Shown one piece after another: positions 34,601 to 37,600 of a DNA stretch of 64,000 bases (its first letter is position 1; each line of letters starts with the position of its first letter). The stretch spans positions 3,412,001-3,476,000 of the forward strand of contig CM075993.1 of the NCBI GenBank assembly GCA_038087875.1, in the 5' to 3' direction. The stretch is from Malacoraja senta (lineage: Eukaryota). Made by a program: the position numbers and the translations under genes. Under the pieces are notes generated by a model. That model ran no database searches, had not been told where the DNA came from, and worked only from the letters and a program-made list of their open reading frames with translations.

Positions 34601-37600
34601 GGCCCTAGAAAGGAAGGCACCTCAACGTGAATGAAGGTTCAATGAACACTATTGTCATAGAAGTCATACAGCTACACACCATGGAAACAGACCCTTCGAC
34701 CCACCAATTGCCATTCTGGTCTTGTCACATTGGCTTACATTTGGCCCACATCTCTCTCTCAAGTTCTTCTTGCGTGTGGCGTGCACAGCCTAAAGTTGCG
34801 AGACAACTTGTTCTGTTTGATCTTCTGCTTGTGCATGCCAGGTTGATTGCATTCATTGAAACAGGGTGGACCACGTGAAGGTTGCAATCTTCCCACCCCC
34901 AAGTTTAAGTTCAGGTTGCATTTATTGTCGCATGCATGCACCAATTGCCACAGTGAGATTTGAGTTACCATATAGCCATGCGAATAAAAAGTACATAATA
35001 CACGATAGAATTTAACATGAACTCTAAATCAAGGGTTCGCAACCTGGGGTAAACTTACACCCCCAGGGGGTAAATTTGTTGATTCTGGATTTGCACGTAT
35101 TTTTTCTCATTGACTGACTGCGTTTGGTTCTGGTATATAAACAATAGACAATAGACAATAGGTGCAGGAGTAGGCCATTCGGCCCCTTCGAGCCAGCACC
35201 GCCATTCACTGTGATCACGGCTGATCATCCCCAATCAGTACCCCGTTCCTGCCTTCTCCCCATATCCCCCGACTCTGCTATCTTTAAGAGCCCTGTCTAG
35301 CTCTCTCTTGACTGCAGACCTAAGACTCTTGCCTCCATCACAGTGAGGAGATGCTGGGTGGACTCACTGTGGTGGATGTTAATATGCGTTTATTGTTGTT
35401 TTTACTGTATTATATGTATGACTGCTGCAATTTCGTTCAGACTTCGGTCTGAATGACAATAAAGGCATATCTATATCTATCTATCTATCCAGAGAACCGG
35501 CCTCCATCGCCCTGTGAGGCGGAGAATTCCACAGACTCACAACTCTCTGTGTGAAAAAAGTGCTTCCATGTCTCAGTTTAAAATGGCTTACCCCTTCTTC
35601 TTAAACTGTGGCCCCTGGTTCTGGACTCCCTCAACATCGGGAACATGTTTCCTGCCTGTAGCGTGTCCAAACCCTTAATAATCTTATATGTTTCAATGAG
35701 ATATCCTCTCACCCTTCTAAACTCCAGAGTGCACAAGCCCAGCCGCTCCATTCTCTCAGCATATGACAGTCCCGCCATCCCGGGAATTATACCAATATCC
35801 GTTCATCATTCGTTGTTCATAAATAAGTGAAATAACATTGTTATGTGCTATTAAAGTTGCCAGAGGTAAACGGGATGAGAAAGGTTGGGAACCCCTGCTC
35901 TAAATCCTCCCTTCCCATATAATGTATCTGTCCAAATGCCATTTCAACATCACAGTTGTATCTGCTTCAAAAACGTTCCTCTGGCAGCTCATCTCAGATG
36001 CAAGGTATCCTCTCCCTGGGTTCCCTCTGAAATGTGTGTGATAGTGTTAGTGTGCGGGGATTGCTGGTTGGCACGGACCCGGTGGGCCGAAGGGCCTGTT
36101 TCTGCGCTCTATCTCTAAACTAAACTAAATCAATTCGCAATCCTTTCGCGTATACCACCCAGTTTCAGAATCCTCATCCCTGGGGAAAAATACACTTTAT
36201 CCATGCCGCTCATGATATTGAACAAAATCACCCCTTGGCCTCCTATATTCCAAAGGAAAAAAGTCCCAGTCTGTCCAAATTCCTATAACCCAAACCCCCA
36301 AATCCAGATAACATCTTGGCGAATCTCTTATGCACCCTCTCCAACTTAACGATATCCTTCCTGTCGGTGGACAACCAGGATTGCACGCAAGGGTGGTCTC
36401 ACCTGGGAGATTGCAACCTTCACGTGGTCCTCCCTGTTGCGACTAATGCAATCAACCCGACCTGCACAAACAAATAGATCAAACAGAACAAGTTGACCTA
36501 CAACTTTAGGCTGTGCACGCAAGACCAGTAGGTCCAGGTGCGGCAGAGGTTCACCTGCACCTCCTCCAACCTCATCTATTGCATCCACTGCTCTAGATGT
36601 CAGCTGCTCTACATCGGTGAGACCAAGCGTAGGCTTGGCGATCGTTTCGCCCAACACCTCCGCTCGGTTCGCAATAACCAACCTGATCTCCCGGTGGCTC
36701 AGCACTTCAACTCCCCCTCCCATTCCGAATCTGACCTTTCTGTCCTGGGCCTCCTCCATGGCCAGAGTGAGGCCCAGCGTAAATTGGAGGAGCAGCACCT
36801 CATATTTCGCTTGGGCAGTCTGCACCCCAGCGGTATGAACATTGACCTCCAATTTCAGGTAGTCCCTACTTTCTCCTCCCCTTCTCAGCTCTCCCGCAGC
36901 CCTCTGGCTCCACCTCTTCCTTTCTTCCTCCCCCCCCACCCTCACATCAGTCTGAAGAGGGTTTCGACCCAAAACGTTGCCTATTTCCTTCGCTCCATAG
37001 ATGCTGCCTCACCCGCTGAGTTTCTCCAGCATTTTTGTCTACCTAGCATATTTGTATGGCTACATCACGACAATGACCCAAGTTTGGTGTGCAATACTAT
37101 TCCCAATGAAGACATCATTGGTCACCACCCTGTCCAGCTGACTCGCCCATTGCAGGGAGCCATGCATCTGTACGCCCAGATCTCTCCGTTCTACCACACT
37201 CTTGGGCTCAGAGTAGATTTAGCTCTTTGGGCAAAAGGAATCAAGGGATATGGGGAATAAGCAGGAACAGGGCACTGATTTTGGATGATCAGTCATGATC
37301 ATATTGAATGGCGATACTAGCTCGAAGGGCTGAATGGCCTACTCCTGCACCTATTTTCTATGTTTCTACCATTGCCAGTGTAACTCATGCCTTGTGGGGG
37401 GAGATGGCCAAGAGCCAGGGTTGACTAATGTTTACCACTGCTCGAAGCGTTCCATTCAGTAGTCATTTTCTACAACTGCTTGTGTTTGGATTAGTTTAGA
37501 GATACAGCGTGGAAACAGGCCCTTCGGCCCACCGAGTCTGCGCCGACCAGCGATCCCCGCATACTTCTGCTCTCCCTCACAAACTACAGACAATTTACAT

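What the first reader, a model, noticed from the sequence alone, without database searches (positions are those of the whole stretch)
34760..34905. Second copy has the same ribozyme-defined 5' boundary and a pairing-consistent change in P1
Seen: the minus-strand copy reads GGGGTGG-GAA-GATTGCA-ACC-TTCACGT-GGT-CCACCCT-G-TTTCAA-TGAA-TGCAATC. G1 (34899) again abuts its own different target duplication (CAAGTT). P1 position 5 is T-A here versus T.G in copy 1, and the J1/2 length differs while the stems are intact. The catalytic C has become T, consistent with CpG decay. This copy is in the sense orientation of the coiled-coil gene intron, whereas the two C-retaining copies are antisense. Inference (n=3, weak): selection may act against an active self-cleaving ribozyme in the pre-mRNA.
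Basis: partly seen in the sequence, partly recalled or inferred. Interest (0 to 1): 0.7.

Follow-up and report, generated by a model that had tools for sequence, protein, structure and literature searches.

The report
Decayed ribozyme-headed skate jumping element
This is one ageing copy of an abundant, roughly 135-base skate jumping element that starts with a very small predicted self-cutting RNA; its broken catalytic base looks like ordinary mutational decay, not like protection of the host gene.

Summary
The sequence facts are right. 34899-34766 (minus) is a ~135-nt retroelement copy with a 6-bp target duplication, in sense orientation in an intron of a skate coiled-coil gene. Its first 55 nt match an HDV-like fold lacking P4. 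The 5' boundary is strongly supported: hundreds of family contigs and reads from four runs share sequence up to G1, then diverge. The selection idea is not supported. All three substitutions in the ribozyme, including the P1 change and the catalytic C-to-T, are CpG transitions; 4 of 7 CpGs are hit, and one breaks a stem pair. One 'C-retaining' copy has a scrambled 5' end and no CpG there. In RNA reads the C is kept in both read directions (185 of 202; 268 of 311; p=0.07; 11 of 16 rows differ at least as much). This copy also has G at -1, a poor substrate. The real object is the family: a ribozyme-headed, SIDE/bipartite-like non-autonomous retroelement with a 54-nt minimal ribozyme in a vertebrate. 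Cleavage is untested, the partner LINE was not found, and the genome-wide orientation test could not be run.

The parts
34845..34899 (-). HDV-like ribozyme fold without P4 (55 nt here, 54 nt in copy 1); G1 = 34899 = element 5' end
   Evidence: helices, descriptor, 0 hits in 200 shuffles; table 7 (family ends at G1)
34855..34855 (-). Catalytic cytosine position (C75 equivalent), here T; a CpG transition; predicted to abolish cleavage
   Evidence: family letter is C in 96/89/96% of contig depth and 453 of 513 reads; C-to-U inactivates HDV-like ribozymes (PMC10879173, PMC13635239, passages)
34867..34867 (-). P1 3'-strand G-to-A (U.G wobble to U-A); a CpG transition, common in the family
34857..34857 (-). 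L4 loop G-to-A; a CpG transition
34890..34892 (-). J1/2 GAA; the extra A is not the family state (family GA)
   Evidence: table 7: family reads break from the reference at 34890 and 34893
34766..34844 (-). 3' domain: 11-bp stem enclosing a 7-bp hairpin, then a short (GAA)n tail; presumed LINE-recognition end. G-to-A at 34836 (CpG) breaks one pair of the long stem
   Evidence: copy 1 domain z = -3.2, 0 of 200 shuffles; table 7 (tail, then random flank)
34900..34905 (-). 5' target-site duplication; its last base (34900) puts G at position -1 of the cleavage site
34760..34765 (-). 3' target-site duplication
11578..11718 (+). Copy 1: intact fold, C at 11621, all 7 CpGs present, 10-bp duplication (11568-11577, 11719-11728); intronic, antisense to the host gene
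36392..36523 (+). Copy 3: rearranged 5' end, shortened 3' end, C at 36443 in non-CpG context, 10-bp flanking repeat; same intron as copy 2, antisense
34397..34604 (-). Host exon downstream of copy 2; its acceptor lies 161 nt from the element's 3' end
37840..38078 (-). Host exon upstream of copy 2 (94% identical to a thorny skate coiled-coil protein)

Best explanation
The locus is a neutrally decaying copy of a high-copy, non-coding, non-autonomous non-LTR retroelement of skates, built from a 5' HDV-like ribozyme (54 nt, no P4) and a structured 3' end with a (GAA)n tail. Likely cycle (inferred): a copy is transcribed passively inside a host transcript; the ribozyme cuts 5' of G1 and frees an RNA with a fixed 5' end; a partner LINE (most likely RTE-like) reverse-transcribes it from the 3' tail at a staggered nick, giving a new target duplication with G1 against it. 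After insertion, methylated CpGs decay. In this copy that changed the catalytic C, the loop G, the 3'-stem G and probably the P1 G, without any need for selection. Shown: boundaries, fold match, duplications, CpG pattern, family variation. Inferred: cleavage, the partner LINE, neutrality.
For: Family 5' loose ends fall exactly after P1 G1 in X1 (137+54 contigs), X2 (195+71), X15 (28+23) and X21 (217+123 reads). 3' loose ends carry (GAA)n then diverge (313, 387, 73, 224). Their agreement of about 0.5 is what 8 fixed plus 22 random letters give. Descriptor: 0 hits in 200 shuffles. All 3 substitutions in the ribozyme are CpG transitions, with none at the 46 non-CpG positions; 4 of 7 CpGs of copy 1 are changed. 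In raw reads, loss at the catalytic C is 60 of 513 (about 17.5% once non-CpG variants are allowed for), like other CpG sites at 15-18%. The base after the C varies between G and T in 15-33% of the family, while the C stays at 88-96%, as expected if source elements need the C. No tRNA in the window and no B-box match in the three copies. G at -1 is poorly cleaved (PMC8495972, section 5), so this copy was probably a weak cutter from the start.
Against: No cleavage was measured, and the RNA run showed no pile-up of read starts (table 6: none). Rfam gave no HDV-type match at gathering score in the window or at E<=10 in 34500-36800. The nested-only fold of the ribozyme part is no better than shuffles (z 0.92 and 0.10), which cannot score a pseudoknot. 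No autonomous partner was found, so 'RTE-like' rests on analogy. Contig-depth shares are biased toward the reference and are not copy counts; 37 variant rows and 414 loose-end rows were not shown, so 5'-truncated or extended copies could not be counted. In the RNA run the element is read unevenly by direction (202 against 311), which neutrality after insertion does not explain.
Confidence: 0.75

Rival explanations
1. One reading: purifying selection favours inactivating changes at the catalytic C in sense intronic copies, because an active ribozyme cuts the pre-mRNA.
For: The one sense copy is the one with T. Fast intronic ribozymes are reported to reduce splicing (Fong 2009 as cited in PMC10919898, passages). 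If the X21 library's first mate reads the RNA strand, sense reads have less C (268 of 311) than antisense (185 of 202).
Against: The pattern has probability 1/3 given one T, and the informative n is 2. The RNA difference is p=0.07, and 11 of 16 listed rows (this one included) differ between directions by at least as much. Under the usual stranded convention named by the tool it points the other way. This copy has G at -1, and G1 is only 295 nt from the next exon, about 4-9 s of transcription at an assumed 2-4 kb/min; by the timing argument of PMC10919898 a slow ribozyme there should hardly matter.
Confidence: 0.1
2. Selection acts earlier: intact sense insertions into introns or UTRs are lost before fixation, or their RNAs are cut, so sense copies are fewer while survivors decay normally.
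For: In poly(A) reads the element is skewed by direction (202 against 311), opposite to the neighbouring repeat (73 against 31; Fisher p = 1e-8). With the usual stranded convention that makes sense reads the minority (39%). 2 of 3 window copies are antisense.
Against: Strandedness of the run is not on record, the run is from another organism, reads are not independent loci, and an antisense excess in introns is general for retroelements (recalled). No pile-up of starts at G1.
Confidence: 0.25
3. The fold is a fossil inherited from a LINE 5' UTR. It no longer cuts; the fixed 5' end comes from an internal promoter or from the fold shielding the RNA end.
For: No cleavage evidence (table 6). L1Tc/NARTc 5' ends double as promoters (PMC3383444, search listing). 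A stable HDV-like 5' fold improved R2 template insertion efficiency (PMC11331408, abstract). P4 is absent and P1.1 has one pair.
Against: All core features are present in copy 1, the end falls exactly at the predicted cut site in four runs, and the C is less variable than its neighbours. P4-less ribozymes (PMC10879173) and ones with a single canonical P1.1 pair (PMC13635239) are active.
Confidence: 0.15

Closest known systems
R2 SIDEs and R2/R1 hybrid SIDEs (Eickbush and Eickbush 2012, PMC3414825, abstract)
   Same: Short non-coding element made of a 5' HDV-like ribozyme plus a LINE-type 3' end, with target duplications.
   Different: SIDEs are rare and sit at fixed rDNA sites. This family is dispersed, abundant and about 135 nt long, with a (GAA)n tail and different duplications at each copy.
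Bipartite non-autonomous RTE derivatives such as RTESINE1/2, WALLSI3, RTE-N2_Lch (Kojima 2018, PMC5786205, passages; Kojima 2020, PMC7245038, part 1 of 4 and passages)
   Same: No tRNA head, a fixed 5' end and a microsatellite tail, in vertebrates. [quoted passage not shown]
   Different: The parent LINE was not found here, so origin by internal deletion is not shown. Neither 'shark' nor 'skate' occurs in the main text of PMC5786205; its supplements and Repbase were not seen.
NARTc and SIDER elements of trypanosomatids (PMC4035085, passages)
   Same: Dispersed short retroposons headed by an HDV-like ribozyme, some assayed active, some degenerate, found inside host transcripts.
   Different: They belong to the L1Tc/ingi clade and carry the 77-nt Pr77 signature with a P4 helix; different host kingdom.
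Minimal HDV-like and theta ribozymes (Kienbeck 2024, PMC10879173, passages)
   Same: Double-pseudoknot core without P4, short J1/2 and L4, catalytic C first in J4/2.
   Different: Nearly 99% of those hits were in phages, often beside tRNAs; this one heads a vertebrate retroelement.
CPEB3 intronic ribozyme (PMC4836649, PMC10919898, passages)
   Same: HDV-like fold with G1.U and U20.G25 pairs, in sense orientation inside an intron.
   Different: Single-copy, conserved, has P4, is active and lies 9.9 kb from the next exon. Copy 2 is a decayed repeat copy 0.3 kb from the exon.

Membership tests
HDV-like ribozyme | P1 of at least 6 bp starting with G1 in a G.U wobble | tested here: met
   7 of 7 pairs in copies 1 and 2; feature from PMC8495972 section 5
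HDV-like ribozyme | Nested double-pseudoknot order P1-P2-P3-L3-P3-P1-J4/2-P2 with full P2 and P3 | tested here: met
   0 hits in 200 shuffles; descriptor motifs recalled; covariation not shown
HDV-like ribozyme | L3 able to form U20.G25 and P1.1 | tested here: met
   7-nt L3 with U first and G sixth, and one C-G pair to J1/4 possible; by sequence only
HDV-like ribozyme | Catalytic C at the first position of J4/2 | tested here: not met
   Copy 2 has T at 34855, so this copy is predicted dead; met in copy 1 and in 88-96% of the family signal
HDV-like ribozyme | P4 helix | tested here: not met
   Only a 5-nt L4; this fits the minimal subtype, which lacks P4 (PMC10879173)
HDV-like ribozyme | Self-cleavage 5' of G1 | not testable with these tools
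   Indirect: family 5' ends at G1; no pile-up of RNA read starts
HDV-like ribozyme | Match to a curated Rfam model | tested here: not met
   0 matches at gathering score in the window; no HDV-type family at E<=10 in 34500-36800
Non-autonomous non-LTR retroelement | Variable target duplications, microsatellite tail, many dispersed copies | tested here: met
   6-, 10- and 10-bp repeats at three copies; hundreds of distinct flanks at both ends
Bipartite RTE derivative / SIDE | 5' and 3' parts homologous to the UTRs of an autonomous LINE | tested here: inconclusive
   No longer element in the window; 0 hits in metagenome and viral contigs; no genome or Repbase available
tRNA-derived SINE (SINE2) | tRNA-like head with a Pol III B box | tested here: not met
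   0 tRNA genes; none of 46 B-box matches (recalled consensus) lies in the three copies

The most novel reading that the evidence does not exclude
Skate genomes carry tens of thousands of copies of an active 54-nt, P4-less HDV-like ribozyme at the head of a 135-nt retroelement, and host selection has depleted cleavage-competent copies from the sense strand of genes. That would give a genome-wide natural experiment on the cost of pre-mRNA self-cleavage. The first half (active minimal ribozyme, high copy number) is likely, about 0.7; the selection half is the uncertain one.
Probability: 0.2. Interest if true: 0.7.

Novelty: new member of a known kind. Interest (0 to 1): 0.4.

Why it matters
This copy alone is ordinary decay. 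The family matters more. It would put a minimal HDV-like ribozyme, a subtype reported almost only from phages (PMC10879173), at the head of an abundant vertebrate retroelement. Because copies land in both orientations, at many distances from exons and with different -1 bases, one annotated skate genome would test directly whether self-cleaving introns are selected against. That question now rests on reporter experiments and the single CPEB3 case.

Tried and rejected
The window's own genome is not held, so the orientation test was replaced by a read-based proxy. Rfam: nothing relevant. Exact-pattern scans for the 5' core and the 3' end found 0 loci in metagenome contigs and 0 in viral contigs. 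Earlier scan notes: 0 look-alikes by sequence, by words for skate, or by relatives. Paper searches linking skates, sharks or Amblyraja to HDV ribozymes or RTE SINEs found none relevant (the list was swamped by general shark papers). Ruminski 2011, Webb 2009 and Webb and Luptak 2011 are not held and Repbase could not be searched, so prior description is not excluded; no supplements were read. Rejected: treating the P1 change as covariation (one-sided, CpG-type); counting copy 3 as an intact C-retaining ribozyme; a tRNA-derived head; nested-fold energy as a test of the pseudoknot; reading summed contig depth as a copy number (the ratio of about 84,000 is a scale hint only). The bacterial promoter scan is not meaningful here.

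Full report
What is there. BLASTN and nhmmer find three copies of this repeat in the 64-kb window: copy 1 at 11578-11718 (+), copy 2 at 34899-34766 (-) and copy 3 at 36392-36523 (+). Copy 2 is flanked by a 6-bp duplication (34905-34900, 34765-34760), copy 1 by a different 10-bp one and copy 3 by a third 10-bp repeat. The host is a skate: the upstream exon is 94% and 91% identical to coiled-coil proteins of Amblyraja radiata and Leucoraja erinacea. P0001 maps in 20 pieces from 49232 to 1536, all on the minus strand (rows under 70% identity were dropped). All three copies are intronic, copy 2 sense and the others antisense. The four exons around the intron of copies 2 and 3 join in frame with 0 stops in 237 codons.

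The fold. Copies 1 and 2 form P1 (7 of 7 pairs, G1.U), P2 (7 of 7), P3 (3 of 3), a 7-nt L3 and J4/2, in 54 and 55 nt, with only a 5-nt loop where P4 would be. A descriptor built from recalled HDV motifs finds only these two loci in the window, with C and T at the catalytic site, and 0 hits in 200 shuffles. Both loci also hit an 'A' control by a one-base shift. Rfam has no match, and nested-only folding is no better than shuffles, which cannot score a pseudoknot. The features match those given for HDV-like ribozymes (PMC8495972 section 5; PMC4836649 passages), and absence of P4 defines the minimal subtype (PMC10879173 passages). C-to-U at the catalytic site abolishes activity in that paper and in PMC13635239 (passages), so copy 2 is predicted dead. 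The 3' 80 nt fold into an 11-bp stem enclosing a 7-bp hairpin (copy 1: z = -3.2, 0 of 200 shuffles), followed by (GAA)n.

The 5' boundary is real. No genome is held, so I laid 4 of 22 listed runs on 34690-34990 at 80% likeness: three contig sets (4,856, 5,968 and 612 records laid, including those on a neighbouring repeat) and one poly(A) RNA run (904 reads, about 6% of the run read), under four organism codes. X1 holds this very locus: a 489-nt contig matches 34690-34792 with 0 differences. Family records break from copy 2 at its extra A, continue through four Gs and then diverge: 137+54 contigs in X1, 195+71 in X2, 28+23 in X15 and 217+123 reads in X21. At the other end 313, 387, 73 and 224 records show (GAA)n and then diverge. 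The agreement of about 0.5 in the main 5' rows is what 8 fixed and 22 random letters give. So the family begins at the predicted cut site, J1/2 is GA in the family, and the fifth G at copy 2 belongs to the target. 414 loose-end rows were not shown, so truncated or longer forms could not be counted. Copy number is at least hundreds by junctions. Window density (3 in 64 kb, about 47,000 per Gb) and a depth ratio near 84,000, which the tool warns is no copy number, suggest tens of thousands.

The changes in copy 2 are CpG decay. Against copy 1 the ribozyme has three substitutions (34867, 34857, 34855), all transitions at CpG, and none at its 46 non-CpG positions. Over the whole element 4 of 7 CpGs are changed. 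At that rate the chance of T at the catalytic site is about 0.29. The fourth CpG change (34836) breaks a pair of the 3' stem, so the copy has one pair-keeping and one pair-breaking change of the same class. In the family the catalytic C is kept in 96, 89 and 96% of contig depth and in 453 of 513 reads. The base after it is T in 15-33%, which removes the CpG; allowing for that, loss in reads is about 17.5%, like other CpG sites at 15-18%. Contig shares are biased toward the reference, and 37 variant rows were not shown.

The selection idea. Copy 3 is not a fair witness: its P1 strand is rearranged, it fails the descriptor, and its C is not in a CpG. Given one T among three copies it falls on the sense copy one time in three. 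The only wider test available was read direction in X21: C in 185 of 202 reads one way and 268 of 311 the other (Fisher p = 0.07). 11 of 16 listed rows, this one included, differ by at least as much, since few expressed loci dominate. Strandedness is not on record. Under the usual convention sense reads keep more C; under the other they keep slightly less. Either way there is no purge, but this is poly(A) RNA of another organism, not introns. Mechanism also argues against selection at this site. The -1 base is G, a poorly cleaved substrate (PMC8495972 section 5), and G1 is 295 nt from the next exon, 4-9 s at an assumed 2-4 kb/min, whereas only fast ribozymes are said to harm splicing and CPEB3's lies 9,931 nt from its exon (PMC10919898 passages). 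The extra A also favours a pairing that competes with P3 in the nested model (P3 probability 0.20-0.26 against 0.38-0.51). The idea stays plausible as a genome-wide question. One lead survives: the element's reads are skewed 202 to 311, opposite to the neighbouring repeat's 73 to 31, which could mean fewer sense copies in mRNAs. No pile-up of read starts was seen (table 6), so cleavage in vivo is not shown.

How it most likely works. Shown: ends, fold match, duplications, tail and abundance. Inferred: passive transcription inside host RNAs, self-cleavage at G1 to set the 5' end, and target-primed reverse transcription by a partner LINE that binds the 3' stem and tail. Reviews describe this role for R2, L1Tc, baggins, RTE and some SINEs (PMC6765202, PMC7761336, passages). 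RTE, Ingi, Vingi and R2 are the clades reported to yield ORF-less bipartite derivatives (PMC5786205 passages), and RTE-clade elements end in microsatellites (PMC13295347 passages). RTE is therefore my best guess, but no partner was found. It is not a tRNA-derived SINE.

Novelty and verdict. It works like R2 SIDEs (PMC3414825 abstract), NARTc/SIDER (PMC4035085 passages) and bipartite RTE derivatives; membership of the last is untested. I found no paper on this family in the held library. Three key ribozyme surveys were not held, and Repbase and supplements were not seen. Earlier scan notes report the same arrangement in other genomes; these are unchecked leads, not support. Verdict: observation confirmed, 5'-boundary reading supported, selection reading not supported. 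A new member of a known kind, whose P4-less ribozyme in a vertebrate is the most unusual trait. Interest 0.4.

Noticed in passing
family loose ends laid at window 34890 and 34893 (table 7): In all 8 listed 5' loose-end rows the majority letter just outside G1 is T on the element strand (as in copy 1; copy 2 has G). This may be a target-site preference or just AT-rich flanks; the per-position share is not given.
   Followed up: no
window 36382-36523: Copy 3's flanking 10-bp repeat resembles the element's own 3' end and the tail is missing, suggesting priming by microhomology; its 5' end has a short fold-back insertion.
   Followed up: partly
window 34799-34801: The loop of the inner 3' hairpin is the most variable spot of the family (four letters at 34800 in all four runs), which fits a real hairpin.
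   Followed up: partly
window 34854: The base after the catalytic C is G or T in the family (T in 15-33%), pointing to at least two subfamilies; copy 3 has T.
   Followed up: partly
window 34900-34990: Copy 2 sits in the short tandem tail of another abundant repeat, just past its AATAAA; that repeat shows the opposite read-direction skew in poly(A) RNA.
   Followed up: partly
window 36532-37260 (+): 242-codon open frame with a weak GIY-YIG match (E 4.5e-4, below Pfam's cut-off), probably a Penelope-like remnant, directly after copy 3.
   Followed up: partly
window 23090-23554 (+): Reverse-transcriptase fragment (RVT_1, E 2.2e-12) of an unrelated LINE; none of the three element matches lies beside it.
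   Followed up: no
window 1536-49232 (-): The host coiled-coil gene has relatives in sharks, rays, lungfish and turtles under inconsistent automatic names (myosin-like, cingulin, CEP250, uncharacterized); its true identity looks unsettled.
   Followed up: no
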